From: Priapulus caudatus
Taxonomy: Eukaryota
Assembly: GCF_000485595.1 (NCBI RefSeq)
Contig: NW_014577067.1
Location: 374,564-427,483 of the forward strand
DNA: 52,920 bases
Direction: 5' to 3'
Part shown: positions 7,957 through 52,892 of the stretch, piece by piece
Layout: each line of letters starts with the position of its first letter
How positions within the stretch are numbered: the first letter of the stretch is position 1
Translations under genes and position numbers: made by a program
The notes under the pieces: model-generated
Database searches by the model: none
What the model was told of the DNA's origin: nothing
The model's input: the letters and a program-made list of their open reading frames with translations, nothing else

Positions 7957-8137
7957 ATGCTTAGAAAGAATAACGAACGCAAGGGATCAATGTTTTTGCG
8001 CTCCAATCACCAGAAGTACGCACCGACCACGCTCACGTTCAACTGGCACGAGGCGAGAGAAGCGATCCCAATGCAGTACGACATTCAATCATGCGACACC
8101 AAGTCACGCAATCTGCACATCGGAACGGTCAGTATTA

Positions 8138-8168
<31 letters not shown>

Positions 8169-8264
8169 ATATATATATCAAGAGTAGATAATAGAGAGAG
8201 AAAGAGCGAGCGAGAGAGAGAGAGAGAAAGAGCGGAACGAAAAAGAGAGCAGAGCGAGAGGAGA

Positions 8265-8314
<50 letters not shown>

Positions 8315-8342
8315 AGAAGAGAGAGAGAGAGAGAGAGAGAGA

Positions 8343-8380
<38 letters not shown>

Positions 8381-12500: not shown

Positions 12501-12810
12501 TGCATCTACTCCCCAGCATCTACTCTCACAAGCACTCAGACATGTACGTGTGTGTGTATGCCTGTGTGTGTCCTAAACCCCTAAAACAAGTCTTTACAGA
12601 GCTCTCACAGCGCAATCAAAGCCGCGTCTCCAACAAGACCATGTTGTTTCTATAGCTTCCTCTCAACCAACACACCCCGCCGTGTCGGCGTGTACGCGGC
12701 GCGGACACGAACGCAGCCCGCGACCGGCGTGGCGACGGCGGCGGCTCTCCTCCCGTAACCCGGCACCCGGCAGGAGGATGCGCGCACGCACGCACGCACG
12801 CACAAACCGT

Positions 12811-26862: not shown

Positions 26863-26901
<39 letters not shown>

Positions 26902-28128
26902 TCATGCAGGCAAGCAGGCAGGCAGGCATTTTAGAATTATAGTACATTAGATCTGGTAATACAAGCTATGGTAGATAGATGCCTAAACTACACGTGACAC
27001 ACGATCACGCACATGTCATAAAAGACACATGACAACATTGCGACATAGGCCCAAGGCATGACCTATTGCACATCCACCTGCCCCGAGGCTAGTAACATAC
27101 TCAGCACAGTGCCATCGTCATTCAACTACAGGATCATCTAACTCACAAGCCCACGTAAACAATCTTTTCCTTTCTTCAAAAAACTAATCATAATGCCCAT
27201 AATTATTGCCTACCTGAGAACAAAAAGATATCATATCAATGCTATGCTCCATCACTAAAATTACTTTCAGACACACGGACTTCTTTGAAACAAAAAATTG
27301 TTGACTCAAAGAAATAACACCATGATGAGAATTTAAAGTTAAACAGTGTCCGATAACAGCCTACTTCGCAACTGCTCAGATATTTACCTAATGCAATCTA
27401 TAATCAGATAAACCTGTTTAATAAATTTGCCAACTCTGACTACATGTACATCCTGTTCCTTCTCATAGACCCATTGTCACCAATATCATACAGTATAATA
27501 GTTGTTAGTTCGTTTGAAGACACTAGAATAATATCACTTCTGCGATAGAATAAGATTATTGCAATTTTTACCAAAAAGAGTAAATTCCGATTTATCTTAG
27601 ATGATAGATCTATGTACTCTTCAACAAAAACTCAATTTTTTTTATATATACATTATTTTAGTTGGCAGCTTGAAGAATGAGTGGCCCAAGTATTACTATT
27701 TTTAAAATTAGTAAAATGAAACTCACATAAATGTAAATATTTGAAAGCACCCCCTAAAAATGCTTGTCTTATAAGCCGTGACATTCATTCTATGCTGTAC
27801 ATAGATTTAACTATGTGATAAGGCAAGGCTCGACACTAACTTTTTTTTTCAGTGGCCCGATCGGGCCACCAAAATCATTGATTTTCAATTTTTGGTGGCC
27901 CGAAAATGTAATCTGGTGGCCCGAAAAAAAACAAAGAAAAACATTATAAATCTTTATTTCAATCTCGTATTGTATATTATTTGAAAATTGGGCCGTCTGA
28001 TGCACTTGCACAAGTCTTTAAACAAACCCCACACACTGACATTGATGATTGAGGCATACATTTGAATTGTCCATTCCACGGCATCAAATTTTCACCAGAA
28101 CCGCTGATTCTGGTTCGCTTGATACAAT

Positions 28129-28181
<53 letters not shown>

Positions 28182-31140
28182 AACAAACACGTGCGCACGT
28201 ATAATATGTTTGTGGAATGCTATATATGATTGTTGAAAAGAGAAAATCGATGTTTGGTAATCGATGGTTGTAAATCTCAAATCTTATATATCGCCTAGCT
28301 GGCAAAGTATAGTTGTAATACATATATATATAGTGGTAAATATATGGTACACATATTATATGGTACACAAATATATGGTGAATAATGGTTTTTATTGCAG
28401 ATTGCTTTTAATAAAATATTCAAGATTTCATATCTTCATGAATTTGTCTAAGTGAATCACGTATCATTATTTGCATTAGATCCAATGTCTGAGGACGAGT
28501 GCATGTTTGTGGTTATGCTCGTACGCAAATCGAGACATAACGGTTGTGACAAATATTATTATTATGAGAATAAATTGTGAATACAAAATTGAAGGTGAAT
28601 AATAAATAAAAGTAAGAATAATATATAAGACGTAATATGCATGCAACTCAAATACATGTAATATAGTATCAACATATATCGTGTATCATATATCATACAG
28701 AACAATGTATATTATAACACACACGCGTGCGCGCACGCACGCACTTATACACACACACGCACGCCCGCACGCACGCACTTATACACACACACACGCACGC
28801 CCGCACTTATACACACACACGCACGCCCGCACGCACGCATATACCGTAATTAATAATCCATGATCAAGCATCATAACTAATCACAACGTGAGTAAATGAT
28901 ATATACGCGAATTATTTATGCTTCTTATATCGTATATGGTATGTTATCAGCATGTTATGTATATACTCATGATAATATTATATGATTTGTGCAACCCACG
29001 TTCTTGATTTGATCATTTGATTCACGTTAGATTATCATTCTTCGCTGCAGTCCCTTGGATTATAAAGCATTTTCTATTCTCTTTGTGAGGTTATAATATG
29101 ATTAATTATGTTGTTTATGCTGCAGACGATTTTTGGGTTCTGCTCACTGATCTCAATAATAATATTTTATTAATAAAATTTTATTATAGAGATCAGTGGT
29201 TCTGCCACTGGTTCTGCTGCTTTACTAATTTTTATTCGCTAGGTAGCAGCACCTACCTGAACCTGAGCCTAGTCAGAGCCAAGGAGCTACATATAACATT
29301 ATATAAATTATATATAACGTTATATGTATAGCTCCTTGGTCAGAGCTACCTCTAGTCAGAGCATATAAATCAGGCAGGCATGACTCATCAGCATATAAGT
29401 CAGCATATCATCAGCATATAAGTCAGTCATATATTATTTAATTCGATTTTTACCATAGTTTTTTTTATATGTGAACAGACTCACAAGTATAATTCGTACA
29501 CACTGTGAGAAGCACTAAAGCTGTGTGTAGTCTTAGAAAAATGCCATAAGGTTATAAATTAGCCCATGCTGGTGGCCGTGTTCCATTACCAATACCATGT
29601 TATATTACCAATATAATCCTAACAAGCAAGTATTATCTTTAAAGTTCAATTTAATATATTCATAGACATTGTAATTATGGACAATATCAGTATCATTACA
29701 ATATATCCCAAATACATACAATATATTAAATGATTACAATATTTATATATTATAATATAATTATAAGTAGTAACACCACATTCAATCTGTGCCATATATA
29801 GTTTTTCAATAATTATACTGTAACTAGTTAATAAACACCTGATATATTTACACCAGGTCACATAAAAATAATTACAAATCTGAAATGTTAAGCCTTATAA
29901 CCCCTCTTAAGATTTCATTTGATCTAAAATGGATATGAATGTACTTATACAGAAATCAGCATTTTGAGGTGCCATATGAAATAACACCGCATTGTACATT
30001 GTGCATGTACATACACCCAGACACGGTTATTTCGTTCAGTTGTCAGACACGATTGGTCTGGCGATGAGCTCCTTCATGATCTCATTGCTTCCGGCGTAGA
30101 TTGGTTGGACTCGCGCGTCGACATATGCCCTGGCTATAGGAAATTCCCACATGTATCCCCAGCCACCATGAAGCTGAAGACATTGGTTTGCAATCTTGTT
30201 CTGCAGGTCAGATGCCCTGAGAAGACAAACACAGGAACGTTATACATTTTACACACTCACACACGCATGAAGTATATACTTGCCCCAGAGTGCCTCTTGC
30301 AATACAACATCACAGACCCTAAGGTATATCAGCTTGAAGTGCTATTACTTTGAATGCTGTTCTGGCTTTCTATTTCTGATTTTTATTTCTCTTTTTTTTT
30401 CAGTTACTAATGTCCTTTGTCTTTAATCAGTTAATAATCTCCTTGATTGTTGACAATAGCACCAATGTATGCAAATTTATAAACGTCAGTAACTTCAACA
30501 TTGTTGATCTTCAGCCCATCTTATGACTCAGTGCAGACTTTCAACACTTCTGGTTAACCTTGAGAGGCCATATTAGCCTATATTCATGAGTTAGTTTAAC
30601 AAAAGAATAATTTCGCAAGTTATAATTGCAATGATGATAGTGAATACCATCTTGACAAGAGTGTGCATATAGGAAAAATCTTATAGCTATTTGGAAATAG
30701 ACACAGAGCACAAACAAGAGATCAGCAGCAATAGGGATGCAGTGGTTTAACACCAAAAAGTAGCTTACAGATATTTAGCCATGGAGACTGAGTAGTTATC
30801 TAGAGTCTCATGCTGATGCTGCTGCAAGCACTGGTCGTAAAATGCTCTCATCATACATATTTCACTCTTCATCTCGGCCAGCTTGTGTTGAACTGTCTGC
30901 AATTAAACAAAATAATGGCATAATGACATAGCCAATATAGCTTCAATGAATGATTTACAATATATGTATATATATATAATTTTAAATATCAGTATTGAAC
31001 TCACATGTTGGTATGTAAAAGGTGTTTGAATAAGAATATATACTAGAAAAACACGGATACATCTCTTGACGTGTTACGTTTGACTGACAAGGATGACTGG
31101 GGAGGTTTTAGAACGAAATGTCGTACCTTTCGATGTAAAT

Positions 31141-31185
<45 letters not shown>

Positions 31186-32306
31186 ATATATATACTTATC
31201 GTGTAAGAGGATTATTAAACGTCAACTACTTACACCGAGTGATGCTGCGTCTCGCACGTGTCAAACTCCTCCTCGTCGCAGCTCTCGCCACCCGAACTGC
31301 TATCGGTCGCCTCCGAGTCGAGCACCCTCTCCAGGTGACCGAGGTTGGCGGCGAGGCTGCTCGACACGCAGCTGATCTCGTCGCACAGGTCGTCGCCGAG
31401 GGCGACGGTGACCTGGTCCTCGCTGTGAGCGCCGCGACTGCTGTACAGCCGCTGACGCTGCGAGCCGTGGGCGCTCTCCAGCTTCCGCACGAGGTTGACG
31501 AGGGCCGCCGTCGACAGGTTCTTCACGTCCTCGCTCTGCAGCAGCTCGGCGTGAAAGTCGCTGCTGTTCGGCGCGCTGCAAGTCCTCGTCGTTGATCGCA
31601 CGCACGACTGCAGGTTCTTGCGCTGGTGCTGAACGAACGCCACCAGCTGTTCGCGCACATGCGTGTTCGTCTGCATCGTCTGCAGCCGCCGCAGACGCTG
31701 CAGCAGCCGCTCCGCACGTCGTTCCAGGTAAACCTGCCGCTTGCCGGCGTCCGCGAGCCTATCACACACGAGAGACTTCAGCAAGGTCAGTTCGGATTGA
31801 TCGTCAGTATCCATGGCACTCTCGTCCAGCTGTGTGGGAGAGACAGCTTCTGGCTGCTGAACGGTGGTCCTATTCTCGGCCAAAATGCTGCTGGCGATTG
31901 GGGATGACGAAGAACTGTTGCGTTGTCCCGTCATGTCTAGCTTTGGATTGCCGTTTGTGTTAGAACCACGTAGGTTACACGTCGCTTTCTGAATTCTATT
32001 TCCTCCCGTTTTCTGGTCGACGTCCATTGTGTTCACAATGCCAAAATTGTTGTTGGTCGCTGCAAGCTTCCGCAGTAGAGCCGGGATGTTGGCTTCTTTC
32101 AACTGACTGTAACCGTTGTGCGGCCGCACCAGAATCTGTGCCTTTTGAGCCTGCACGGGAGAGACAGCCCGCTCGCTTGCTGTGGGACTCTCACAGTCCC
32201 GCTCCCTATCAGTTTCCGGCGAGCTCTCAGATGGCGGCGGTGATGGAGGAAGTCTGAAACCTGAATGCACGGACTGCCTAATTGCATCCGACAATGCAGG
32301 CGCCAT
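12811..32306 (-). CDS. KANSL1: KAT8 regulatory NSL complex subunit 1 (KANSL1/NSL1); exons 32306-31234, 26047-25251, 25126-25003, 24262-24180, 22916-22469, 21453-21330, 20608-20350, (18531-18503 tentative), 14201-13940, 13007-12811; ~1130 aa
   Basis: MAPALSDA start; LLQRLRRLQ coiled coil; [59 protein letters not shown]-like CAARTRP; PEHE domain [51 protein letters not shown]. Splice phases checked; only the link between 20350 and 14201 needs a small extra exon or an alternative donor. Confidence 0.93.
15705..17048. mobile_element. Helentron/HINE-like non-autonomous repeat with nested hAT-like element (~16176-16517) and internal duplications
   Basis: Start GAAAGTGTCAGTGACACTGTAGCTCACC and end CCATGGCAATAGCTCATCTTGACGATGTCAAGGCGAGCTAAAAA (hairpin plus A-run, (GGAC)n) recur at ~35536-35890; 63-bp tandem duplication ~16310-16461; ~150-bp duplication 16518/16820. 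Confidence 0.65.
17849..20169. mobile_element. HINE-like repeat with nested insertions
   Basis: AACAAGAG..GCTCATCTGA start; end GCATCTGACTTCGTCAGATGAGCTAAAAA; 3' part (20025-20169) recurs at 35050-35202. Whether both ends belong to one copy is inference. Confidence 0.5.
18696..19163. mobile_element. hAT-type MITE
   Basis: TAGTGTTG...CACCACTA; 8-bp TSD GGAATTTC; ATCGAT-rich subtermini. Confidence 0.8.
20909..21307. mobile_element. hAT-type MITE
   Basis: TAGTGTTGTCA...TGACATCACTA; 8-bp TSD TAGGTAGG. Confidence 0.85.
22209..22406. mobile_element. hAT-Charlie-like MITE
   Basis: CAGGTGTTCTTAACC / GGTTAAGAACCACTG; TSD CGCTAGAC/TGCTAGAC. Confidence 0.8.
26863..28840. repeat. Microsatellite cluster: (CAGG)n ~26863-26928, (CA)n 28131-28181, (CACG/CA)n 28718-28840
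   Basis: Directly visible simple repeats. Confidence 0.9.
30036..30896 (-). CDS. ACADL: ACADL exons 8 (30896-30769) and 9 (30216-30036, stop codon), lying inside the first coding intron of KANSL1
   Basis: [33 protein letters not shown] | [59 protein letters not shown]; canonical splice sites; not in the ORF track. Confidence 0.95.
31146..31194. repeat. (TA)n microsatellite; a second one at 43158-43196
   Basis: Directly visible; both lie in inferred breakpoint intervals. Confidence 0.9.
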
Positions 32307-33833
32307 CGCGAAAGGACGGGACAGCCTCAATGGCCAGCGTGAACACATACAAGTGGTAGAATAGCAGATGCAAGATTCTCCACCTGATGATCCATAACGC
32401 CCACCTGGATGTCTCCCACCTGGTGAACGAAAATGCACATCAACATATAATTACAAATATGCAAATGCTTCAACAATATCACAACTCTGACTTTCGGAAT
32501 TATTTCAAGTTAAATTAGGCTTTAATTCTGCTGCAGACTAAATTACATTCTTCAATATGAACAATACATAAACACCAGATTTTAAAAATTGACCATGTGC
32601 GATGATGAACGATGCCACTGTTTGAGCTACTTCTTGCATCAGTGACACGAGAACATTTGCAGGGCCTAATTCAGGCCATTTTTCATACTGAATACGGGCC
32701 TCCCAAATTACGTCCCCTAGCAAAATGCCCAAATTACAAAATTCATAAAACGCCCAAATTAGCAGAGCTCTGATGCAGATCTCCATGTTTCTATCGTCAT
32801 GTTGTAGGCACTGTTTTATAATAAAATGCTCATATAAGATCTATAATCTATTATCTGAATAAAATGTGTCAACCAAACGTCCAATTTAACGTGATAGATA
32901 AGTATATATACAATTTCCCTGTACGGTTCCCCGATTAGGCTAGATACATAGATTAAGCCCCGATTTGTAAATGGTTATTCCATGTACCACAGAGAGAGCG
33001 ATAGTGCAATTCATCCTCTCTTATATTAATGATTACAAACCCCACATTCCATGTTTATAAAATGCAAAAAAAGTTCATAAAGCAAGTTATGTGAGCGAGA
33101 GACAGATCACAGAATGGCATCATCTCAATGTGCACATACGGTAATCAATAATAAAACACTATCTATAAACATGTTAAATGTCAAAAATATTACACCTGTC
33201 ATAGCTTTCCAAATACAACATTTATTCACAATGATGACAATAGTTGTAGGCTGAAGCATAATTTAGACAATTCACAGAAATTATATGGAGGCCAAAGGTG
33301 ATAACAAAGTGGCAGTCAGCCTGTAAAAGTATCTCTGGAACTAGCCACAAGTTCCCTTCTCGCTTAACACTACATTGGCCTACGACGTGCAACAGTCGGA
33401 GAGCCTGGTCGGTTTACTCTGGAACTATAATTAATGTGAGTACCCTTGAAAGTGGGTGACGAATCAGATGACGTAACATCATGAGTTATTAATACGCTGT
33501 GGCTATATGGCAGGCAGCCGGGCAGTCTTCGATTTCCTAAATGCCCTTAAACCCTAACCCTTGTTTACTTGAGATAATGCTGAAAATTAAAAAATGCCGT
33601 GCATTTAGGAAATCGAAGACCGTGGCCGGCAGCCGTCAGATATATGCCGGCTGCCGGGCATATAGACACTCTGTTATTAATATTATTGCGTCGTATACAT
33701 ACACTACGACACTAGGCCTACAATACATGCATTGCTACGACTCATGATGACTCGAACACGAGTGGCGTTTATCAAGGAACGAAGGCGTAACAAAATATCT
33801 CTGGCATGCATGCTGTTGTCCAAACTAACGTAC

Positions 33834-34450
33834 CAACGACCCTCCACGCCTGCTCCCCCAGGAACAGGATGGGTCTGTGGGGTGAAGTGGAAATTGCTCA
33901 GTTGCTAGACCGTTCTTCTTCCTTGACAAGAACTAGGTTGATGACAACGGCGTGACAGCTTTCAGTCTTCCTCTGTGCATTTTAATAAACAAGCAAATTG
34001 ACAACAATTTCAAAGTGCACAGTGAGGTAACTCATGCATTTAGGCATTTTTATTGACGTTTGTAAAGATACATAAGCCAAACGTAAATTTTTGGGCGTTT
34101 TGCAAGCTGGAGCGTACAGAACAGAAGACCGCGAGCGGGTTACAAATACGCGTAGGACAAACCACGTGATCAGGCCACGTCCCCGATGAACAAACAGGCG
34201 AATCAACATTTTTGGCAAGAACACATAGTAGCGATTTCCACCTTCTTACACGTAGTACAGCACATTATACTCACTCCACTGTAACGTCTCTGTATTGTTT
34301 TCACTAGTGCCGTCCGAATAAGCCAGAAATTTCCGCGAACTAGTATCGAAAATGTGCAATATCAAACGCCTCAATAATGGCGACGAAATGAAAGTCCGTA
34401 GACCTTCCAGACAACGAAAACGGGCGAGATAGGATGTGTGACGTCACATT
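33834..34450 (-). promoter_or_regulatory. Putative KANSL1 promoter and non-coding 5' exons (~34390-34275 and 33972-33834)
   Basis: CpG-rich; TGACGTCA at 34439-34446; YY1-like AATGGCG at 34376-34382; minus-strand donors GTGAG (34274) and GTACGT (33833), acceptor CACAG (33973). Confidence 0.55.
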
Positions 34451-37968: not shown

Positions 37969-40062
37969 CTGTGCTTTCAAGCCAAGTTTCTTCAGTTTCT
38001 TGCCCTTCTTGAACCCTTCCATACCCTCCTCCACCAGAAACAAGCTGATACCACGGGCCGCACTCTTGGCCGTTGGGTCTGTTACTGCTACGACAATAAC
38101 AACGTCTGCCATGTGACCATTGGTAATGAAGACTTTGCTTCCATTAAGAATCCAGCCATCTCCATCTTTTTTGGCATTGGTTTTAATGCCTTGAAGATCA
38201 CTGTTATGGAAAAGTAGAGCTGGAAGATATTCTTGAGAAATATATGATCTATACAAATATATCTGTTCACGTCTATTTCATACCTAGTACATTGAAAATT
38301 CCACATAACTCCTTCAAGAGCCTATTATGATATAGGTTTAATTATATCACTACTATAAATTAACTTTTTTCTATATATACTGGTAAAAGTTGAAGCAATG
38401 GTAATATTGAAGCTGACAACTATTTTGTGAACTGACAGTTTGAAACGGGGGATTTTTGGCCCAGCATGATAGCTGCAAAGGTGACATGACAGCTTGGCTT
38501 GGACATTGCACATGCTGGGCACATTACACAGCAAATAACTCGGAAACTAACGGTAGAGAATGTTTACTCTCACCTGCCTGCTCCAGGTTCTGTCATGGCA
38601 ATAGCTCCTATTTTCTTTCCAGCTGTCATGGCAGGCAGGAACTTCTCTTTCTGCTCGGTAGTTCCGTAGTGACATATATAGGGCATCACAATGTCTGAGT
38701 GCAAGGCCCATCCTGGGCCTGATGCGCCAGAATACCCCCTGGAATTAATTATCAATACAATTACAGACAGGTCGGTCAATCCATAGTGCTTCAAGGACAT
38801 ACGATTTGTACCAGATGCACCTTTGAAACCATTTTTCTCATTATTTTATCCTAACAAGTTGGTACACAATTGCTATAGTTATTTGATAAGTACACAAGCA
38901 GCTTTGTTTAAACATATAGTTTATAGATGATTTTAAAATTAACAGCATTCCTGCAGAATGGTTGCATTGGTCTGTCACTAGCTGTGCACTGCAGTCATGA
39001 CTAACATCCATGGGCAGATTAATCTTCTCCCAAACTACTGCCCTATTTGCAACCATACTTACCATCCATGCTCAGTGGGGGTAGATAGAATGTCAGTGAG
39101 ACCACCTCCTTGCTTACACATTTAAGCCAGTGTTATTGATGTAGGTAAGTCAGTGTCATTCTAATAACTACAGGTGACATCTATTAAATCTACTAATAAG
39201 ATGAGCGAGAACCCATTAAATTCTCATCTAATATGAAGGACGTATTTCTTACCAAATTCAACTAGGAAGGTTAATTACTGCATTATAAGCAAAATCACAA
39301 ACTCCCACACAAGCACAATCACACACATGTGCGCACATAACCACATTTAAAACAGTAAAACACATACACACAAATAGCTATTAACTCAGATAAGTAATTA
39401 TACTTACTGCTCATCCCACACGATAGAGCTTGTGAGGATATCACTGCCAATGCCTCCCTCCTCTGCAGGTGTACTCACTCCCAACAGTCCAGCTTCACCC
39501 GCCTTCTCCCACACCTCACGGCTTACTTGTCCATCGATCTCCCACCTGCAACATTTGCCATTTTGCATTTGTCACATAATATTACTATCAAGAGGTAAGG
39601 CCTACCTAAGGAGGTATACCTAAGGTGTTATTAGCTCTTGTTACTAAGAATAAAACTTACTACTTAATTTCAAGATTCGCCTGTTTCTGTCACTCACCTG
39701 AAACATGCAGAGTTATACGACCAGTATAGCATCTTGGGATGCGTGAAAACAAAGCTTCATGTCAATGATGCGGCATGACCAACAATAGTGGTAGCGAGCG
39801 AATCACATTTGATTCTAAACAGCGCTGCACAAAATTATGTCCAGAAAACAGCACTAACCAAACGAGCGACTTCTCAGTACCCGGGTCCAACAACAAGATA
39901 CGTAAAACTCACTGGTCGTGATAGGGCATGACCTCCTCTTGGAAGAAACGGCGCACATTCTTTCGAAAAAGATCGTGCTCATCGGAGAAAATACGTCGAG
40001 TGCCGATGTCGGTGAGCTTTTCCGACTGGCCCGGCTCGGGCCGATCCATGTTGCAGCATCCT
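37969..40062 (-). CDS. ACADL: ACADL exons 2-5 (40062-39913, 39545-39408, 38738-38574, 38200-37969)
   Basis: KLTDIGTRRIFSDEHDLFRKNVRRFFQEEV; WEIDGQVSREVWEKAG; GPGWALHSDIVMPYI..GAIAMTEPGAGSDLQGIKT..LNGSKVFITNG..GISLFLVE..KLGLKAQ; phases 2,2,2,0 consistent. Confidence 0.96.
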
Positions 40063-40425: not shown

Positions 40426-40682
40426 AGGGAGAGTTTACTCTAGGTTCTAGGGTTATTTTGAGCTAATTTAGGTTATAATTACGCAACATAAAAAGTTTCA
40501 TGGTTCAATCACCATTAGAAATATTTTAAAAAAATGTTTTAAAACTAACGACTACAGTTTGATTACAACGACGGTGGCACCAATTAAATTAGGTATCTGG
40601 TAACAAATACGTGTGGGTATAGACGATTTGTTATACAGTAAGTACAGTTGTATGCAGTAAAATCCTAGAGGATACCGTCCCT
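40426..40682 (-). mobile_element. Complete short copy of the TTAA-flanked Kolobok-like family
   Basis: TTAA|AGGGAGAGTTTACTCTAGG...CCTAGAGGATACCGTCCCT|TTAA; one half matches 36250-36398 and the other 44189-44285 (both reverse complement). Confidence 0.8.
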
Positions 40683-40808
40683 TTAAAAAAAATCAACCAG
40701 AAATGTACCCTCTAACCCCGAGTATGGGTCAGATCAAGAGTAGATAATAACACATTAACTATGTGTTATTATCTACTCTTGGTCAGATAAAAAGAGATAG
40801 AAATATAC

Positions 40809-43204: not shown

Positions 43205-43289
43205 TATATATAATATATATTATTTATAATTTTTAAATCCTGCTTTTGAATGATATCAAGCATCCTGTTGCTAGTGTGCACATTCATAC

Positions 43290-43705
43290 CTGCAGACTTG
43301 AGATGGTACGCTTAAATGCCTTTCTTTGCTTAACATAGTCCCTAGTCATCTCAAACATGGCCTCAGAACTGGACACACCTACTGCTGCCACGATCAGTCT
43401 CTCCTGTGGAAGCTCCTACATGAGACATAATTCATTAATAAACCCTTGTTTCATTATAAATGTCACGAATAGAATATGATATTCGGTTTGTACCTAGGAT
43501 GAAAAACCTTTTAATCAGGTATCGGCCTAACCTAATTCTAGTTTAGCATATGCAGAGCCATCACTAACAATTGGTTTTAACACTGAGAATATAGTCGAAT
43601 GACCTTCACTCTCACCTTCATCAGATACATAAAGCCATAGTTTTCCTCTCCCAGCAGTGCACTCGCAGGCAACTTCACATCTTCGAAGAACAGCTCAGCG
43701 GTGTC
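43290..43705 (-). CDS. ACADL: ACADL exons 6 (43705-43616) and 7 (43415-43290), located upstream of exon 2 in transcription direction
   Basis: DTAELFFEDVKLPASALLGEENYGFMYLMK | ELPQERLIVAAVGVSSSEAMFEMTRDYVKQRKAFKRTISSLQ; continues exon 5 (..LKAQ, phase 0) and leads into exon 8 (TVQHKL, phase 0). ELPQERL carries the LCAD-type catalytic Glu. Confidence 0.95.
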
Positions 43706-43826
43706 CTGAAACACACACACGTCAATAAGTAGCCATTGCTAGATAAGCTAGTGTCAAAAACCATCCCAAAAGCATTCAGATTGGTCTACAAGAGCTATAC
43801 TACTAGTATATACCAACAGCCATTAA

Positions 43827-44343
43827 AGGGATAGTAGACTCTAGGATTTTACTGAATACAACTGTACTTACTGTATAACAAATCGTCTATACCCACATGT
43901 ATTTGTCATCAGATACCTAATTTAATTGTTATAATTAATTACGCATCACTGCTACGAAATTTGAACGGCGCCATGACACCCGCGACCGTGCTGCCACCCT
44001 GAAAAACTTGCGTATTTGCCAATTTATTTTGCACGTTACAGACCGAGGGCTAATCACAAAGATGCAATTATATTCATACCTAAATGCTATTTAACCGAAC
44101 GATGTTCATTTGAGGACAAATTTATCCATAATATAACTGAAACTATATGTCGTTTATAAGATATTACAATTAATCCTTTTGCTTTTAAAGGGACAGTAGC
44201 CTCTAGGATTTTACTGCATACAACTGTACTTACTGTATAACAAATCGTCTATACCCACATGTATTTGTCACCAGATACTTAATTAATTATTTACACATCA
44301 ACGCTACGAAATTTGAACGGCGCCATGACACCCGCGACCGTGC
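43827..44343 (+). mobile_element. Two orphan LEFT ends of the TTAA-flanked Kolobok-like element
   Basis: TTAA|AGGGATAGTAGACTCTAGG at 43827 and TTAA|AGGGACAGTAGCCTCTAGG at 44189; ~160-bp direct duplication. Confidence 0.75.
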
Positions 44344-47300
44344 TATTATTTTGCCATAAGGTAGTATGATTATGCATGACACGAAGTATTTGCTAGTCTA
44401 GTACTGGAGAAATTAGCGTTTGGATGCGCATTGTGAGCCTTTAAGTTACGTTGCACCCATGCTGGGTTTAAAAATTAAAACTATTTTACATTGAAACTAT
44501 AGTTAGAATGCCTTGTTTTTATTGTTGAATCCCGCAGTTTTTTTAAATAAACGCTGCGGTGGTAAAATATCTGAACTACTTCACCCCCGGAGGAATGATG
44601 TGTATGAATCTTAGCGAGTATGACGCTCCAGCTGATTGTAGTTTTTCGCACGTGTTTTGCATAGCAACCGTTACTATGCAATTGCAGGCAAACGCATGTG
44701 TTTACACCTTACTTATCATGACCATCTGTATGTGATAAAGGCGAGAGTTAACCTCGTCATCGCTGGGCTTTGTTAGCCGAACAAAAACTTCTTCGGGAGA
44801 TAACGTACGGGAGACGCGATCCCTGTCGCGCCACCTTCCAGTTGCTGTGTATGCGAATTTACCACTTGGCTACGACACACGACGGTAAATAACGTGAAAA
44901 CCATGTCGTGCAAAAGTACGATTTAAGTCAAAACGAAGAATGCTACGCGGTTTGTAATACTACCGGAAGATGGAATAAGGACCAGTGAACAAAAGAAGCT
45001 CATGTTTGTATACATTTTATATTTTTACTCACATCAAACTCGTACGACAAAATTTAGTGAAATCAGTGCCAAATACGTATCAAACTCCTTTGTCTTTATT
45101 AACTCCTGATACTGATAGTACCAGTCTATGTATTGTACCAAGAGATAAATAATATACACAGAAAGGAGATTTGCCAAAGAATGGCCGGTAGTCAACATTT
45201 GATAGTCTGAAGTATAAACTGTGTTGAAGGTTCTGAATTGTAAGTTAATGAACTATTTGTCAGAATTCTCATAGGATGTTTAACTAGTACAGGAACAATA
45301 CATCACAAAACCATAGCCCATGTAGTAACACAGTTGAGATTTTATATAATAGGCTATTAATAGCACACGAGCTTGGCATTGCTTATAATTTTATTGTTCG
45401 GTGAACTGAAGCAGCATGTTGGTTCAAAGCAGTTTTGTCAAATTTTATAGGGAAAAGCATTTTGGCAACATTTTTAAATGTTTGAGAATAAGATCCAATG
45501 AATAATTAACACGACATTATAAATCCCTGCCTAAGCATTACTGGTCATATAAGTTTTTATAATCTAGTGATGAATAATAAATCCAATAAAATAAATTAAG
45601 GCACAGCAGCCAGTGATTTCGTTACGAATGCCAGCATGATAGCCCATTACACTGATAGCCTAGCAGTCAATTTATTTTTTGGGGGCTACTTTTCAAGCTC
45701 GCCCGCATGAAAATAGCACTCTAAAATTTGGTTTCCATTGAATTCTATGCAATTTTCCGGGGCTCTTTTTGGCATTTCGGGGGGCTAAATCGCCCCGAGC
45801 CCCCGTGTATTTTTTTCACTGCACTATATAGTGTTAATTAATACTGTTATGCTCAAGCCTCAAAAACACGGATACAATTATATTTCCTCGCCCCTTTCTG
45901 ATTTACTGTTGTAGCATTACACTTAGCAAAACGTTTTAGCTACAAAACTCTAGGACACAAATAACCCCAAAATATCCGCCAAATCGTTGCTCTCAGGTGA
46001 AAAAGCGAAGCATTGTATTGCAGATATAGAAGGATTTTAAAAGATAGCGGCAAGAGTAATAGTACCTATCAAACATTCATGAATGAACCTTTTCATTATC
46101 TTTTATAGTAACAGGCCCAAATGCTTTTGCAAGAGGCCGTGGCAGAGTGCGGGGGGGGGGAGAATCCCCCCCCCTAAATTTTTTTTCAAACCTAGATGTT
46201 CTGAGATGCAATCTGGTCTATTCTGAGCTGTAGTAAACAGACACATTTGAATTACAGTATGGTTCTTTTTTCCAATTTGGTTTCTCCTGGGCCTAGATTC
46301 ATCATTGGTACGTAAGTTAACGTCCATAGGCAGGCATCCTACGAAATGCGTACGTAACGTTCCTGAGGTTAATTCATCAAGCCGTCAGGACTAGCCCGTG
46401 CGTAGGCATATCGTTAATGAGTTGCACATAACCCCGTTAGTAGCAGCCGCATTCTTTCCTCGCTGCAGTATTTCATGTGACACCGTTTGTTGCCATACTC
46501 GCAGATAGGGCCTGCATACCTCCCAAAGTTATACTCGGCCAGGTTTTTAACGCATTCTAACTCTAAAACTGTTACGTTAAAAATTCTTAAAATATTTACA
46601 TAAACAGGCAAGACGGTTGTCATTTTGAATACGATTGACCTAAGATACCTTGACTCGATTGCAACACTGGCTGGTCAAATATAGACAATATGACGCGGGC
46701 GATCTAGCGGATGTGGTAGCAACTTTCGTGTGCATTATTGCTACTGCACTAAATATTTTGATTGTCCTCTCAGGAGTATACAGCAGAATGCCACCGGATT
46801 TGTATAGAATGCGGAATCTTCAGTGCTCGAAATAAGCGTTGTCCGGTTGTCCGAGACAACCAGAAATTGCGCCGGACAACCTAACCAGTCTGAGACATTG
46901 TCCGGTGGACAACCAAAAAACACTATCTCTAACCCTTACACTAACTCTAAACCGACTCGGCTATCTTATATACGCGTGGTACCCAATTAATCTATGGTGT
47001 ATAACCTTTTGCTTTCAATATTTTACATCTGAACTGACAATCAATCCCATGCAACCAACTGGTATAGGCTAGCTGGCACAATAATGTTCAGTTTCATACT
47101 TCAAATCCGAGTGTTTTCTAGCTCATCAACAAATCTTAATCGTGAATTAAATCGTGAATAATATAAAAATATGGGACCAGCTGCTATTTCCAACACTGGT
47201 ATAATATCATATGTCAGGTTTTCTGATTTATGAGAGGTGAACTCGATTTGAAACCAGCAAACCAGCAAGTTTCCAAAATTTTCTGGGGAAGGACCCCCAT

Positions 47301-47432
47301 ACCCCCCGCAATATTGAATCTTATCCACACGGCCGCCGTGCGTATAGGCACTTCCGTCAGTGTCACAGTGACTGTGTCAGTGACTAACAGTCACAGACGC
47401 TGACTGTGACTGTGACGGACAGTCACTGCATG

Positions 47433-48424
47433 GGGCCATGATAAAAATATTGTTTGTTTGCCCCCTCACCCGACTGACCCGCCAAAAAGGGGCCGACTGA
47501 AAAAAATGTATTAATCATTTTTTTACAAATTGTATCACTGTACATTATATAAATCTGTAAGCAATACATTATATGTACCAAGCAAAACAAACACGTACTC
47601 AACATAAAAGGTATCTCCACACAAGCACACCCGAGCATGTAGACACTATGCTAAATTTGTAAAAAGACCCATTTAAAAAAAAAGCCTACCTACATACCCA
47701 AACTTTTCAGCCGGGGTCAGCTGAGGGCAATTTAAGGAAATTTTTTTTTAATTGTGGCTTGACAGCTAGTTGACACAGTCAGTGACTGTACGTGTCAGTG
47801 ACACTGTCAGTGCCACTGTGCTGCATGCCATGGGAAGTAACCTCATAGTCGTAGTTGGATGTAACCTCGTAACTAATAAAGATTGATGTAGGGATTTGAT
47901 AAAATCGATAGAACACTGCCGATTGCACTGGAAAACGTTTCCATTCTACAATTAACCATATAATCGGATTGGTTATTGTGAAGATAGCATGTCTGAGAGT
48001 TAAACATGACAAAGTAAATAATTCATCTATGACACATCCATGTGGGAAATTAAAGTTTTATAATGTTATTAACACTGAAAATACAATTAAATCTAGCACA
48101 GGCCATAATAAAAATATTGTTTGTTTGCCCTCACCCGACCGACCCGCCAAAAAGGGGCCGACTCAAAAAATTTTATTGATCTTTTTTTTAAAACAAATTG
48201 TATCACTGCACATTATATAAATTGGTAGGCAATACATTATATGTACCAAGCAAAACAAGCATTCAACATAAAAGGTATCCCCACTCAAGCACACCCGAGC
48301 ATGTAGACAACATGCTAAATTTGTAAAAAGACCCCCCCCTGCCCTAAAAAAAAAGCCGACCTGCATGCCTACCCAAACTTTTCAGCCTGGGTCGGTTGAG
48401 GGCAAACAAAGATCGGAGTGGCCA
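47433..48424 (+). mobile_element. Two copies of a ~325-bp GGCCA...TGGCC element (~47433-47760 and ~48101-48424), PIF/Harbinger-like termini
   Basis: Clearly alignable direct copies (ATAAAAATATTGTTTGTTTGCCC...CAAACTTTTCAGCC); superfamily call is inference. Confidence 0.7.
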
Positions 48425-48463
48425 CAGAGATTCCTAAAGTTCTTATCCATCTTCTACTTGCAG

Positions 48464-50770
48464 TTTGTTGTGGTTATCTATATGACAAGTGAACGACATC
48501 CTGTCATTTGCCGCAGTGAAACTGAGGAATATTTTGTTGACCCAGTTTCCAGTACCAAAAAAAGGTTTCCGAGTCTTTCAGCACCGGCAGAGCTTCAACT
48601 GTCTGTTATTGTGCCTGCATACAATGAGCAAGAAAGGTGTAAGTACCACAGAGGACCTAAGGTTGACTTACTTACATCTAAGTATTATGAGGTAAAGATG
48701 AAGATTCATTTTTGGCTGGAGTGGAGGGTATAGATGTTACTAGTTGTCAGCATGTTTACATCAGTGACAGTATGTTTAGCACCCATTTCAAGTGGTTAGT
48801 TGAGCATTAACCAACTTCTGCAATATATCTTGTTAATTAATGTGATGCATAAAATAATAAATGCCATAGACTGTAAGTGTCACTTTGTCTGTTTTAGTGC
48901 CCAAGATGATGGATGAGTGTCTGGATTACTTGGAAGCTAGAAGAGTAAGTACACATGCAGTGATAGTGTATATGGTTCGGTTAGCATAATTGATGTCATT
49001 GGTGTCTATTGTATGTCATTTTCATACAATAAATGGAATGGTTCTTATTTTTATTCCTTGGTGAAAATAAAATAAAATGTAGTTTCATTTTTTGTGCCAT
49101 TTCAATTGTACTGTCTGGCTGAAAAACCAAGACCCTAATACTACCATCTTCGATTTACAGAAAGAAAGTGAACATTTTCAGTATGAAGTTATTGTGGTAG
49201 ACGATGGGAGCAGTGACAAAACAACAGAGGTTGGTATATGATGTGTGTGTGCTTGCTCTGCTGAATTGTTAAGCCTAGCAGGTATTTAATGTCCAATAGT
49301 TGCTAATATATAACATTGCTATTGTCTAACTCAGTATATATTGTCACACCTTTTAGGTCGCACTGAAGTATTCTCACAAGTTTGGTACGGATAAAGTTAG
49401 AGTTCTGACTTTTGAGAAAAATAGAGGAAAGGGAGGAGCAGTGAGACTAGTAAGTAAAGTCAAAACACACTTAGGTAGGAAGTTTCAATCTGTATTGTAC
49501 AAGATATAATCTACAACTGTGGAAAACTAATCTGTAATACAACACATTTTGTAAAGAATATTGTAAAGAACACATATTGTAAAGAAATAAAAAATGATAG
49601 CAATGTTGAAACAGTGTTATTCTATTATAGGATTATGGTTAGAATTTCACCAAATCAATTTTGCTTTATATCTACCGGTGCTCTCAACCCCTATTACATA
49701 TATCTGTTTATCTAAGTGATAATATTGTAATATGCATTTATCCATTCATTCATGACAGGGTATGATGAGTTCAAGAGGAGAACATTTGCTGTTTGCTGAT
49801 GCTGATGGTGCATCTAGTTTTCCTGACTACTCCAAAGTGGAAATGAAAATGAGGAAAATATGTGATAGTAATAAGGTAATTCCAACAAATATTTTTAGCC
49901 ATCTTGCAAAAAAACATCATTGCTGTATGGAGAAGACTCACATAATAGACTCAGGCAGCAGCAGCCACAACAGCAATGGTAACAGATGTTACAGGAGTAG
50001 CAACAGTTGTTGTAGGAGCAGCAGTGGTAGTAGTAGCCACAGGCAGTAACAACAGCAGCCATTCAATTGAGTAATTTTTGGTCTTGCAGACTAATGAGGC
50101 GATAGTTTGTGGATCAAGGGCTCACTTACAAGACGAGGCTGTTGCAACAGTGAGTGTGATGTTACTTCTCGTTTATGCATGCACCAGATTTAAATTTTTC
50201 TGCTTCCTTATAAAGTTTCACCAAGGAAACTTCACAATTGTGACATTCTTAGGCGTTCTGCCATCGTCTGTTCTATATTCTATTATATAACTATCTAAAA
50301 AATATCTTGGACTTTACAAAGAATATATGTCTATGCTGGTACAATGGCTATGCTGGCCCTCCTTAAAAGTCAGAGACTATTGTGCATAACGAGGGGAGAG
50401 GTGTTAAATGATGTTGCCACTTATTGAGTTATTGAATCTGCATTGCTTCAGTAGTTGGTTATCTGTAATGTACAGTCACAAAAAGTGTGAACCTAATGAT
50501 ATTTCTGCCTTACGCTTGACTCTAGAAAGTCAATCGTTGTATGAATATTTTTTTCTCAATAATTAGCATTTCAAGTATCCATTATCATTGTAAGTGTCCA
50601 TTATCATATTGATTTCAGCGTTCCTTATTTCGGACTTTGTTGATGCACGGATTTCACTTCATGGTCTGGTTGCTATGTGTAAGAGGCATCAGGGACACCC
50701 AGTGTGGCTTTAAGCTTCTCACCAGGCAAGCAGCTCGGTCAACCTTCAGTAACCTTCATGTCGAACGCTG
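48464..50770 (+). CDS. ALG5: Dolichyl-phosphate beta-glucosyltransferase ALG5, exons 2-8 (48464-48638, 48898-48944, 49161-49229, 49357-49449, 49759-49875, 50090-50149, 50619-50770); terminal exons not found in window
   Basis: LSVIVPAYNEQERLPKMMDECLDYL; YEVIVVDDGSSDKT; NRGKGGAVRLG; LLFADADGA; CGSRAHL; GIRDTQCGFKLLTR..LHVERW; GT2 family, phases consistent. Confidence 0.96.
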
Positions 50771-50835
50771 GTGAGTGTTAGCGAGTGCCCGGTCCACAGG
50801 GGCATTTTATACTCTGTATTTATAGAGGATCATGC

Positions 50836-51043
50836 AGGGTTTCTTCTGAGGGAAAATTAGACAAAGGAGGTAATGGCCAGTTTGGGAAAAAAACGCGCAC
50901 GTTGGATTCAAATACAGGATGTATTGATATAGATATAGGATATACTTATCAGTAAATAGTAAATACAGGAACATTTTCACAACGCCGATGTTAAATTTGA
51001 CAACGGCGGTGCACCACTGTGCCTCCTATGTATAAGAAACCCT
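50836..51043. mobile_element. hAT-like MITE
   Basis: CAGGGTTTCTT / AAGAAACCCTG; flanking ATCATG duplicated. Confidence 0.75.
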
Positions 51044-51697
51044 GATCATGTATTGTGAAGGTTGGACAATTGAATTATTGTTGTCAACTTTCATACTAGT
51101 AGTGTTACCGTAGAACATAAGCAGGTTTAGTTTATATTTGATGGCTATAATTTATGTTGCTACAAAGTTATCAGTATCATGCACTCACATCATAATTATG
51201 TAAGTAGTCACCTTCTTTCCTTCCTTCCTTCACTTTACAATATAACTGCAATAAAAGGATACAAGGATACACAAACACTCAGCCATGATACGATGTGTTT
51301 ACGTTTATCATTGCTTGCTTTTTGATCTCTGTCCTTTTGATGAAACGGTTATAAATTCTCACTATAGCCCGCGTTCGCGGCCTGCGGCAGTTTATCGAAC
51401 GCGGGCTATAGTACTACTACTAGAGCTACGTGTGGATGGGATGGCATGCGATGGCATGGGATAGATGGGATGGAACCAAGCGGGTTGAAGTCAACTGAGT
51501 AACGCCTACCTCCCATAGCCTAGCGCCTAGTCTCTCTACTCACACCTTCGGTGCTCGCATTGGGGGATTTAGATATAGGTGCCTGTGGGCAACGCCGGGT
51601 ATCCGCTAGTACCTGAATATTCTTCAACATCCAAGAACCTGATACTGTCGCTGTACTACTAGGGCCTACTAGTTTTAAACACGCGCGCTATGCTTAC

Positions 51698-51786
51698 CGC
51701 TTTGAAACTGCTGAAGCAGTTCCGAGAATACGCTGACTTCTCAATAAATGTTGAGGCAAACGGTGACAGATTCTAAACGCAGACAT
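51698..51786 (-). CDS. ACADL: ACADL exon 1 (mitochondrial presequence)
   Basis: MSAFRICHRLPQHLLRSQRILGTASAVSK(R): Arg/Ser/Leu-rich with no acidic residues; donor CG|GTAAGC is phase 2, matching the acceptor of exon 2. Nine exons total 1299 nt = 432 aa. Confidence 0.85.
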
Positions 51787-52304
51787 GACAGAACTGATTG
51801 GTTGCCAAGTGCTGAGCCCTGAGCCAAGTGCTCAAGTTGACAACCAGTTTTTCCCCACGAGATGGCAGTCCAGAATAGACGGCACATTTGTCCATAACTT
51901 GCAGCTCCAGGGGACAATGCGCTATAAGTTCAGGAACAGTGAGCCCATCTAAGTCGAGTAACCATAATAGAGGTAACCAGATAACTAGCTGGTAGGTGCA
52001 ATTATTTTAATATCAGTATAAACTATGTATGGTTTAAATTTATAGTAATATAAACCTAGTTTTATTACGGTAATAATTTAGTATATGCGATACGATTGTT
52101 GTGTTTAAAATAAAATGAATGAATGTGAAAAAAAAAGCCGTATATTCAATGTTCATCAGTAATTTTTGCCAGACCAAATTCAGATTTTAGTGTACTCCAA
52201 TCTCAGCCTGACGTCACGAATTGTAGCGCTGAGTTGGCAGCGTTATTTGCATCAGTTCATTTGTAAATACACACATTTTGCAGTATTTTTCACATTTTAG
52301 CATC
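51787..52304. promoter_or_regulatory. Bidirectional promoter between ACADL exon 1 (-) and ALG5 exon 1 (+)
   Basis: Divergent ATGs ~520 bp apart; TGACGTCA at 52209-52216; ATTTGCAT at 52245-52252; CTGATTGG at 51794-51801. Confidence 0.65.
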
Positions 52305-52379
52305 ATGTTATTAGACCCTGATGTCATAGTTTTGATAGTATACTTGTTAACTGCAGGAACTGCGTTCCTTCTATGTATG
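52305..52379 (+). CDS. ALG5: ALG5 exon 1 (N-terminal membrane anchor), downstream of exons 2-8
   Basis: MLLDPDVIVLIVYLLTAGTAFLLCM with phase-0 donor ATG|GTACGT, continuing as the hydrophobic FVVVIYMT of exon 2; no comparable first exon found upstream of 48464. Confidence 0.8.
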
Positions 52380-52606
52380 GTACGTTTTCTATCCAGCAAT
52401 ATTCAATAAGTTAATTTCTCATCTTAGCAAACTCGATAATAGCAGTGTCAGTGTCAGTGACAGTGACTGTGTCAGTTGACAGTGTCATGACTGTGTCAGT
52501 TGACAGTGTCATGACTAGCTGTCAGTTGACAGTGTCAGTGACTGTGCAGTGACTGTGTCAGTTGATAGTTGACAGTGTCAACTGACAGTGTCAGTGATGG
52601 CCGAGA

Positions 52607-52892
52607 CTATACGCACGGCGGCCGTGTAGATAAGATTCAATATGGCTATACGCACGGCGGCCGTGTGGCGGACTCAATATGGCTATACGCACGGCGGCCG
52701 TGTGGATAAGATTCAATATGGCTATACGCACGGCGGCCGTGTGGCCAACTCAATATGGCTATACGCACGGCGGCCGCGTGGATAAGATTCAATATGGCTA
52801 TACGCACGGCGGCCGTATGGCCGACTCAATATGGCTATACGCACGGCGGCCGTGTGGATAAGATTCAATATGGCTATACGCACGGCGGCCGT
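52607..52892. repeat. Tandem array of alternating 39- and 37-bp units (7.5 units), preceded by a (GTCAGTGACAGT)-type low-complexity tract 52443-52596
   Basis: CTATACGCACGGCGGCCGTGTGG-[ATAAGATT or CCGACT-like]-CAATATGG; unit starts 52607, 52646, 52683, 52722, 52759, 52798, 52835, 52874. Confidence 0.9.

What the first reader, a model, noticed from the sequence alone, without database searches (positions are those of the whole stretch)
48464..52379. ACADL/ALG5 bidirectional promoter block displaced downstream of the ALG5 body
A ~700-bp head-to-head module carries a mitochondrial presequence exon (-, 51786-51698, phase 2 fits ACADL e2) and a membrane-anchor exon (+, 52305-52379, phase 0 fits ALG5 e2). 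It sits after ALG5 exon 8, so ALG5 e1 points away from e2-e8, which have no obvious first exon upstream. This shows the scrambling affects genes on both strands.
Basis: partly seen in the sequence, partly recalled or inferred. Interest (0 to 1): 0.88.

Follow-up and report, generated by a model that had tools for sequence, protein, structure and literature searches.

The report
Likely mis-ordered ACADL/ALG5 assembly blocks
The shared start region of two ordinary housekeeping genes lies out of order in this draft priapulid worm sequence although their messenger RNAs are in normal order, which is likely an assembly error and not a scrambled genome.

Summary
The window is Priapulus caudatus DNA. 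A head-to-head module holds ACADL exon 1 (minus, 51786-51698) and ALG5 exon 1 (plus, 52305-52379), 518 bp apart. It lies downstream of ALG5 exons 2-8 (48464-50770).

One spliced RNA contig joins 52378 back to 48463 and then runs through exons 2-8 with GT..AG introns. A second starts at 51799, carries ACADL e1, then 685 nt (the length of e2-e5), then e6 and e7. Both mRNAs are therefore collinear, and the window is not.

The window order is A C B E D F; the mRNA order is A B C D E F. A third gene is interleaved the same way. Every swap is between neighbouring small blocks and keeps the strand.

In DNA contigs of a source-like run, blocks E and D have equal single-copy depth (28.9 and 27.9). High-copy repeats separate them. 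One contig leaves the window's path at 51416.

The best reading (about 0.85) is local mis-ordering in an unpublished short-read draft of 59,586 scaffolds. The biology underneath is an ordinary bidirectional gene pair. No read that spans the true junctions could be examined. Interest is low.

The parts
52305..52379 (+). ALG5 exon 1: start codon plus N-terminal membrane anchor, 75 nt, phase 0, GT donor
   Evidence: ORF, donor, hydropathy 2.54. X7 record 11 has 48 letters here and joins 52378 to 48463.
51698..51786 (-). ACADL exon 1 coding part (29 codons + 2 nt; basic, acid-free presequence-like peptide). The RNA contig 5' end is at 51799.
   Evidence: X7 record 9 positions 1-102 lie on 51799-51698.
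51787..52304 (.). 518-bp divergent spacer between the two start codons; inferred shared bidirectional promoter (TGACGTCA at 52209, CCAAT at 52197 and on the minus strand at 51797; GC 0.37)
   Evidence: motif positions, composition. Promoter activity is inferred and was not tested.
48464..50770 (+). ALG5 exons 2-8: 48464-48638, 48898-48944, 49161-49229, 49357-49449, 49759-49875, 50090-50149, 50619-50770
   Evidence: 100% to P0121 residues 21-258, all AG/GT; six GT..AG joints in X7 record 11; X1 record 6 covers 48418-50860 at depth 28.9.
50860..51587 (.). Border zone between block E and block D: high-copy repeats around a single-copy island (51019-51327). A DNA contig leaves the window's path at 51416.
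   Evidence: X1 bin depths 13153, 15226, 3546; record 7 at depth 32.1; table 5c row 51416 -> 47796 with 13 letters between, depth 25.6.
52443..52892 (+). CAGTGAC-type satellite (52443-52597) followed by a 76-nt tandem array (52607-52892) on the right flank of block D
   Evidence: X1 record 8 (1040 nt, starting at 51587) fits the stretch to its end at 52440 and has 186 more letters.
47308..47412 (-). Inverted copy of the same satellite/array junction, on the left flank of block E
   Evidence: I12, I20, I21, I24; local score 80 against a shuffle maximum of 27; the satellite is dense in only 4 bins of the window.
43290..43705 (-). ACADL exons 6 (43705-43616) and 7 (43415-43290), lying between e1 and e2 in the window
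   Evidence: X7 record 9 positions 785-878 and 879-1003.
37969..40062 (-). ACADL exons 2-5 (40062-39913, 39545-39408, 38738-38574, 38200-37969), 685 nt in all
   Evidence: The 685 nt equal the stretch of X7 record 9 between e1 and e6, allowing for 3 ambiguous letters.
30036..30896 (-). ACADL exons 8 (30896-30769) and 9 (30216-30036, with stop)
   Evidence: PF00441.
31233..32348 (-). First coding exon (372 codons) of a neighbouring PEHE-type protein gene (P0230). Its next exon is at 26046, so ACADL e8-e9 lie inside its first intron on the same strand.

Best explanation
The window holds a real head-to-head ACADL/ALG5 first-exon module, and its position after ALG5 exon 8 is likely an assembly mis-ordering of small sequence blocks between high-copy repeats, not the order on the animal's chromosome. 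Shown: both first exons are transcribed and spliced to their second exons. Both mRNAs are collinear (ACADL e1-e9; ALG5 e1-e8 and onward). The window's block order is A C B E D F, where A = ACADL e9-e8, B = e7-e6, C = e5-e2, D = the two first exons, E = ALG5 e2-e8, and F = ALG5 e9-e10 beyond the window. Inferred: the chromosome has A B C D E F, that is, a normal divergent pair sharing a spacer of about 0.5 kb that would act as a bidirectional promoter. Also inferred: the draft assembly swapped neighbouring small blocks while keeping their strand and then closed the junctions through repeats. One tentative detail: the right flank of D and the left flank of E carry the same satellite/array junction in opposite orientation. 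ALG5 intron 1 may therefore hold an inverted (foldback-like) array in which the assembly broke.
For: (1): RNA contig X7 record 11 joins 52378 to 48463 and then shows six GT..AG joints through e8. RNA contig X7 record 9 holds e1 (positions 1-102), then 685 nt, then e6 (785-878) and e7 (879-1003). One search shows that e2-e5 sum to exactly 685 nt. (2): the nine ACADL exons, all AG/GT, join into 1299 nt and 432 codons without an internal stop, 69-72% identical to Lingula and amphioxus ACADL over residues 37-431. ALG5 e1-e8 is open for 263 codons. (3) All three swaps are between neighbouring blocks with the strand kept. Each block occurs once in the window. (4), DNA contigs of X1: single-copy pieces at 48418-50860 (depth 28.9), 51019-51327 (32.1) and 51587-52440+ (27.9) are separated by repeats with bin depths of 3,500-15,000, and of 20,000-34,000 to the left of E. 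No listed piece bridges E to D. One contig of depth 25.6 follows the window to 51416 and then continues otherwise. (5) Database models match the window's order and are damaged by it. The ACADL-like P0002 stops at 231 aa by reading into the intron after e5. The ALG5-like P0121 lacks e1 and starts in intron sequence before e2. No Priapulus protein of 105 aa or more carries ACADL e9 (best identity 88% among the 120 listed). (6) Passages of PMC10280001 describe the only public P. caudatus assembly as unpublished, with 59,586 scaffolds and N50 209,727 bp. Passages of PMC4262078 state that repeats create spurious links which make contig order ambiguous.
Against: The window has no N at all. Every block junction is therefore continuous sequence, not a scaffold gap, so a plain scaffolding error must have been followed by false gap closure or have arisen inside the assembly graph; I saw neither. 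No three-copy direct repeat that would allow a graph mis-traversal was found. No DNA read or contig showing the predicted true junctions (D to E, C to D, B to C) was seen. Table 8 lists only 16 of 5357 pieces, so I cannot say that no contig bridges E to D. The independent DNA run X9 (Hi-C reads) lay at depth 0-4 in the single-copy parts and decides nothing. The back-joint rests on one RNA contig of one run, whose RNA nature is a guess by the tool; it is confirmed only by the contig's GT..AG joints. The assembly method is not known to me.
Confidence: 0.85

Rival explanations
1. The order is real, but only on a rearranged, non-functional haplotype of the sequenced individual. The RNA comes from the intact allele or from other animals.
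For: The window is continuous sequence without N. The RNA run X7 belongs to a different study from the DNA runs X1-X4.
Against: This needs three separate neighbour swaps within 25 kb on one haplotype, each keeping the strand and leaving every exon and splice site intact. X1 blocks E and D lie at about the same depth as other single-copy pieces (18.8-32.1), with no half-depth signal.
Confidence: 0.07
2. A tandem duplication (E D E F, or repeated E D units) exists in the genome and was collapsed or cut by the window. Exon 1 would then splice in cis to a second copy of e2-e8 downstream of 52920.
For: A 'goes back' joint is what a tandem duplication gives. Table 5c lists an X1 contig that joins 51416 to 47796 with 13 filler letters. 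Depth of E and D (about 28) is about 1.3 times that of the pieces further left (18.8-24).
Against: E (28.9) and D (27.9) have equal depth, and neither is twice the other single-copy pieces. The RNA contig matches the window's own E exons with 0 other letters in the 4 listed pieces. Only one Priapulus ALG5 protein is in the database, and it lacks e1. The model cannot explain the ACADL e6-e7 displacement or the third interleaving. Position 47796 lies in a CAGTGAC-type satellite, so that joint may be a cross-match.
Confidence: 0.04
3. The germline order is truly permuted, and normal mRNAs are made by trans-splicing or by somatic DNA rearrangement.
For: This rests only on the bare disagreement between the window's order and the mRNA order for two genes and on the continuity of the window.
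Against: ALG5 alone would need two trans-splicing events and ACADL at least two. All exon borders are ordinary AG/GT cis-type sites. Nothing else in my calls speaks for it.
Confidence: 0.02

Closest known systems
Local mis-ordering (relocation) of small contigs in short-read scaffolds
   Same: Neighbouring small blocks are swapped with the strand kept. Borders lie in high-copy repeats where independent contigs break. Transcripts are collinear while the assembly is not. Gene models are truncated as a result. Passages of PMC4262078 describe repeats making contig order ambiguous.
   Different: There are no N gaps in the window. The step that closed the junctions was not seen, and the assembly pipeline is unknown to me.
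Bidirectional promoters of head-to-head gene pairs (under 1 kb between starts; definition recalled, not from a call)
   Same: The two first exons diverge, with 518 bp between the start codons. Both are transcribed: the ACADL contig starts at 51799, and the ALG5 contig covers e1 only from 52331 (5' end incomplete). The spacer holds TGACGTCA and CCAAT motifs.
   Different: Promoter activity was not tested. Whether the ACADL/ALG5 pairing is conserved in other animals was not tested. GC is low (0.37) and CpG observed/expected is 0.67, so this is not a CpG island.
Scrambled genes of ciliate germline nuclei, and mRNAs built by trans-splicing of separately transcribed exons
   Same: Exon blocks of one gene lie out of order on the same strand, while the mature mRNA is in order.
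   Different: Those systems have dedicated DNA unscrambling or trans-splicing signals. Here every border is a plain cis-type AG/GT site, the animal is a metazoan, and an assembly error explains the data.
Back-splice (circular RNA) or tandem-duplication joints
   Same: A downstream donor (52379) is joined to an upstream acceptor (48464) on the reference.
   Different: The joint links the start-codon exon to exon 2 of a full-length linear reading frame that matches the N-termini of homologues. Depth gives no sign of duplication.

Membership tests
ALG5 (dolichyl-phosphate beta-glucosyltransferase, GT2) | Glycosyltransferase family 2 catalytic domain | tested here: met
   P0121, 100% identical to window exons 2-8, hits PF00535 at E 2.3e-25, 89.9 bits against a cut-off of 23.3.
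ALG5 (dolichyl-phosphate beta-glucosyltransferase, GT2) | Single N-terminal membrane anchor ahead of the catalytic domain | tested here: met
   Exon 1 plus the start of exon 2 has a best 19-residue hydropathy mean of 2.54 from residue 7 and aligns collinearly with the N-terminus of P0123. No dedicated TM predictor was run.
ALG5 (dolichyl-phosphate beta-glucosyltransferase, GT2) | Closest named relatives are ALG5 proteins | tested here: met
   All 3 proteins found with exon 2: two are named dolichyl-phosphate beta-glucosyltransferase by their sources and one is unnamed. Identity is 56-59% over about 250 residues.
ACADL (long-chain acyl-CoA dehydrogenase) | Three ACAD domains (N, middle, C-terminal) | tested here: met
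   PF02771 (111.4 bits) and PF02770 (86.9 bits) in P0002. PF00441 in e9 (57 bits) and e7 (24 bits).
ACADL (long-chain acyl-CoA dehydrogenase) | Closest named relatives are long-chain specific, not other ACADs | tested here: met
   Nearly all named hits among the 120 listed rows of each are named long-chain specific acyl-CoA dehydrogenase. The joined ORF is 69-72% identical to P0025 and P0006. No tree was built.
ACADL (long-chain acyl-CoA dehydrogenase) | Mitochondrial presequence | tested here: inconclusive
   The exon 1 peptide has 5 R+K, 0 D+E and 5 S+T in 29 residues, which fits. No targeting predictor was available.
Bidirectional promoter pair | Divergent transcription units with starts under 1 kb apart, both expressed | tested here: met
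   518 bp lie between the start codons. The ACADL RNA contig starts at 51799 (minus strand); the ALG5 contig covers e1 from 52331 on the plus strand, 5' end incomplete.
Bidirectional promoter pair | The spacer drives both genes | not testable with these tools
   This needs reporter or CAGE data.
Assembly mis-order | Transcripts collinear, reference not | tested here: met
   (X7 records 9 and 11) together.
Assembly mis-order | Block borders lie in repeats where read-level contigs break or disagree | tested here: met
   single-copy pieces end at 50860, 51019, 51327 and 51587; bin depths between them are 3,500-15,000; a contig departs at 51416. This was examined only for 43240-52440.
Assembly mis-order | Independent DNA evidence for the collinear order | not testable with these tools
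   X9 is too thin. No genome is held. No chromosome-level assembly was found in print.
Truly scrambled gene | The permuted order is confirmed by DNA molecules that span the block junctions | tested here: inconclusive
   No listed X1 piece spans E to D, but only 16 of 5357 pieces were listed. X9 depth is 0-4.

The most novel reading that the evidence does not exclude
The permuted order is the true germline order in Priapulus caudatus. Three neighbouring genes would then have interleaved or swapped exon blocks and still make normal mRNAs, which would demand multi-step trans-splicing or somatic DNA reordering in a metazoan.
Probability: 0.02. Interest if true: 0.95.

Novelty: not a real feature. 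Interest (0 to 1): 0.1.

Why it matters
If the reading is right, nothing is new in biology: this is a normal divergent ACADL/ALG5 pair. The practical value lies in flagging about 25 kb of a widely used draft reference in which block order is likely wrong. That order halves the annotated ACADL (231 aa against 432) and gives ALG5 a spurious N-terminus. It also places ACADL's last exons inside a neighbour's intron. For a scan of this kind, the case shows that 'scrambled gene' signals in short-read drafts should be checked against RNA and read-level contigs before they are treated as biology.

Tried and rejected
- Whole-genome look-up: no genome is held for this window.
- Run index: no RNA holder was listed. 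RNA evidence came only from laying X7 and X10.
- X9 Hi-C reads: depth 0-4 in single-copy parts, so they are not informative.
- X10 raw RNA reads: depth about 1. One read each lies on two ALG5 intron joints, and none is listed on the e1-e2 joint.
- Inversion between the inverted satellite arms (47308-47412 against 52536-52646): rejected. e1 and e2-e8 lie on the same strand inside the segment, so inverting it cannot restore their order.
- Graph mis-traversal through three direct copies of one repeat: no such repeat was found at the borders.
- Tandem duplication: not supported by depth.
- Earlier notes of this scan: none.
- A published chromosome-level P. caudatus assembly: none found. The searches were 'Priapulus caudatus' + 'genome assembly' and + 'chromosome-level', with passages of PMC13088399 read.
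- tRNA and Rfam scans of the window: 0 hits each.
- Pfam, PDB sequence search and the protein atlas on the large ORFs at 20-32 kb gave only a weak PEHE hit.
Full report
**Source and identity.** The window has 52,920 bases and no N. Its exons are 99-100% identical to two database proteins named by their sources as Priapulus caudatus. One is a 231-aa 'long-chain specific acyl-CoA dehydrogenase, mitochondrial-like' (P0002). The other is a 322-aa 'dolichyl-phosphate beta-glucosyltransferase-like' (P0121). Both come from one contig of 1,178,442 bp. No whole genome is held for the window. Passages of PMC10280001 describe the only public P. caudatus assembly, GCF_000485595.1. They call it unpublished, with 59,586 scaffolds and a scaffold N50 of 209,727 bp.

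**The observation.**
- ACADL exon 1 lies on the minus strand at 51786-51698. It has 89 nt and a GT donor, and its peptide is basic and free of acidic residues (5 R+K, 0 D+E).
- ALG5 exon 1 lies on the plus strand at 52305-52379. It has 75 nt, phase 0 and a GT donor, and it encodes a strongly hydrophobic segment.
- The two start codons are 518 bp apart and diverge. The spacer holds TGACGTCA at 52209, CCAAT at 52197, and CCAAT on the minus strand at 51797.
- ALG5 exons 2-8 lie upstream on the same strand, at 48464-50770. All have AG/GT borders and are 100% identical to P0121 residues 21-258.
- The C-terminal 64 residues of P0121 have no match in the window.

**RNA evidence.** I laid four coded runs on 43240-52440.
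- Run X7 holds spliced RNA contigs.
- Record 11 (1582 nt, plus strand) has 48 letters on the exon 1 side (52331-52378). It then joins to 48463 ('goes back 3916').
- It continues through exons 2-8 with six joints whose skipped parts all begin GT and end AG.
- Record 9 (1923 nt, minus strand) lies on 51799-51698 with its positions 1-102, on 43708-43615 with 785-878, and on 43414-43290 with 879-1003.
- From exon borders read in the sequence, ACADL e2-e5 (40062-37969) sum to 685 nt. That is exactly the stretch of record 9 between e1 and e6, once the three ambiguous letters at the e5/e6 border are allowed for.
- The nine ACADL exons join into 432 codons with no internal stop. The product is 69-72% identical to Lingula and amphioxus ACADL over residues 37-431.
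- ALG5 e1-e8 join into 263 open codons that align from residue 10 with a crab ALG5.
- Both first exons are therefore real, and both mRNAs are in the ordinary order.
- Limits: each gene rests on one contig of one run. The ALG5 start codon is not covered. Raw RNA reads of X10 lie at depth about 1 and give one read on each of two intron joints only.

**The disagreement.** Read from left to right, the window holds:
- ACADL e9-e8 (block A, 30036-30896)
- e5-e2 (block C, 37969-40062)
- e7-e6 (block B, 43290-43705)
- ALG5 e2-e8 (block E)
- the two first exons (block D)
- ALG5 e9-e10 (block F), beyond the window's end

The mRNAs require A B C D E F. The window has A C B E D F. That is two swaps of neighbouring blocks, with the strand kept in each.

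A third case lies just to the left. A 1049-aa database protein (P0230), 100% identical to window ORFs, starts with a 372-codon exon at 32348-31233 and continues at 26046 and further left. A 1214-aa relative carrying a sub-threshold PEHE match (32.5 bits, cut-off 34) aligns collinearly with these pieces. ACADL e8-e9 (30036-30896) therefore lie inside this gene's first intron on the same strand, and its first exon lies inside ACADL. A swap of these two neighbouring blocks would give plain tandem genes. I have no RNA evidence for this third case.

**DNA evidence.** Run X1 is the best DNA holder, and the tool warns that it may be the sample the window was assembled from.
- Its contigs give single-copy pieces at 43240-43850 (depth 21.6), 45084-45698 (22.4), 47654-48127 (24), 48418-50860 (28.9), 51019-51327 (32.1) and 51587-52440, with 186 further letters (27.9).
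- Between them, bin depths rise to 3,500-15,000 (50608-51528), 20,000-34,000 (47231-48458) and above 200,000 (43854-44467).
- Blocks E and D are thus separate single-copy islands between high-copy repeats, which is where short-read assemblies break.
- E and D have equal depth, and neither is twice the other single-copy pieces.
- Table 5c lists one contig of depth 25.6 that follows the window to 51416. After 13 other letters it continues with letters that fit 47796 onward.
- Position 47796 lies in a CAGTGAC-type satellite. I read this as a DNA path that leaves the window's E-to-D junction for a satellite. I did not see its length, and this stays partly unexplained.
- Only 16 of 5357 pieces were listed, so I cannot state that no contig supports the window's own junction.
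- The Hi-C run X9 lay at depth 0-4 in single-copy parts and decides nothing.

**Flank structure.** CAGTGAC-type heptamers are dense in only four 100-nt bins of the whole window: 47300, 47700, 52400 and 52500.
- The junction of this satellite with a 76-nt tandem array at 52536-52646 is an inverted copy of 47308-47412, with a local score of 80 against a shuffle maximum of 27.
- In the window these arms stand as [arm] E D [arm].
- If D preceded E, the two arms would face each other between ALG5 e1 and e2, as the two halves of an inverted, foldback-like array in intron 1.
- That is a plausible place for an assembly to break. It is an inference only.
- An inversion between the arms cannot restore exon order, because e1 and e2-e8 share a strand.

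**Consequences in annotation.**
- P0002 ends by reading into the intron after e5.
- P0121 lacks exon 1 and begins in intron sequence just upstream of exon 2. The RNA contig does not support that start.
- Among the 120 best proteins of 105 aa or more found with ACADL e9, none is from Priapulus; the best identity is 88%.

**Verdict.** The most likely cause of the displacement is local mis-ordering in a draft assembly (0.85). Three points count against this reading:
- The window has no gaps.
- I saw no read with the predicted true junctions.
- I do not know the assembly method.

The rivals are a rearranged haplotype (0.07), a collapsed tandem duplication (0.04) and true scrambling with trans-splicing (0.02). 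The underlying biology would be an ordinary divergent ACADL/ALG5 pair with a spacer of about 0.5 kb that would act as a shared promoter. Interest is low.

Noticed in passing
window 12814-32348 (minus): A PEHE-type protein gene (database protein P0230, 1049 aa, 100% identical to the window) has its first coding exon at 32348-31233 and its next at 26046. ACADL e8-e9 (30036-30896, same strand) lie in that first intron. This is a third neighbour interleaving of the same style as the two swaps in ACADL and ALG5.
   Followed up: partly
window 20300-20686 (minus): This ORF gives a weak PEHE hit (PF15275, E 4.9e-4, 21 bits, below the cut-off of 34). A 1214-aa relative (P0235) aligns to 20611-20516, but the database model P0230 skips it and uses exons at 14201-13941 and 13014-12814 instead. 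P0230 itself shows no Pfam family, so the model may miss its PEHE exon.
   Followed up: partly
window 47308-47412 and 52443-52892: A CAGTGAC-type satellite joined to a 38/76-nt tandem array occurs twice in inverted orientation. Hundreds of Hi-C reads show the 38-nt unit in tandem elsewhere (joint 47347 to 47311), so it is a high-copy satellite of this genome, possibly the arms of foldback-like elements.
   Followed up: partly
window 43854-44467: A very high-copy element: X1 bin depth is 211,000-365,000 against about 25 for single-copy DNA. It is also abundant in RNA reads (X10 depth 70-120). Tandem copies lie at 43823-43992 and 44185-44344, and an inverted partial copy at 40581-40688.
   Followed up: no
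window 3150-3431 (minus): An exon with a DHHC palmitoyltransferase match (PF01529, E 1.6e-12), so another gene lies at the left end of the window.
   Followed up: no
window 5516-6215: A near-perfect inverted repeat: 276-nt arms, 95% complementary, 148 nt apart. It is likely a small foldback or MITE-like insertion.
   Followed up: no
window 51340-51416: An 18-nt inverted repeat with an 18-nt loop lies just before the point where an X1 DNA contig leaves the window's path. A 6-letter unit (51417-51422) appears to be absent from that contig.
   Followed up: no
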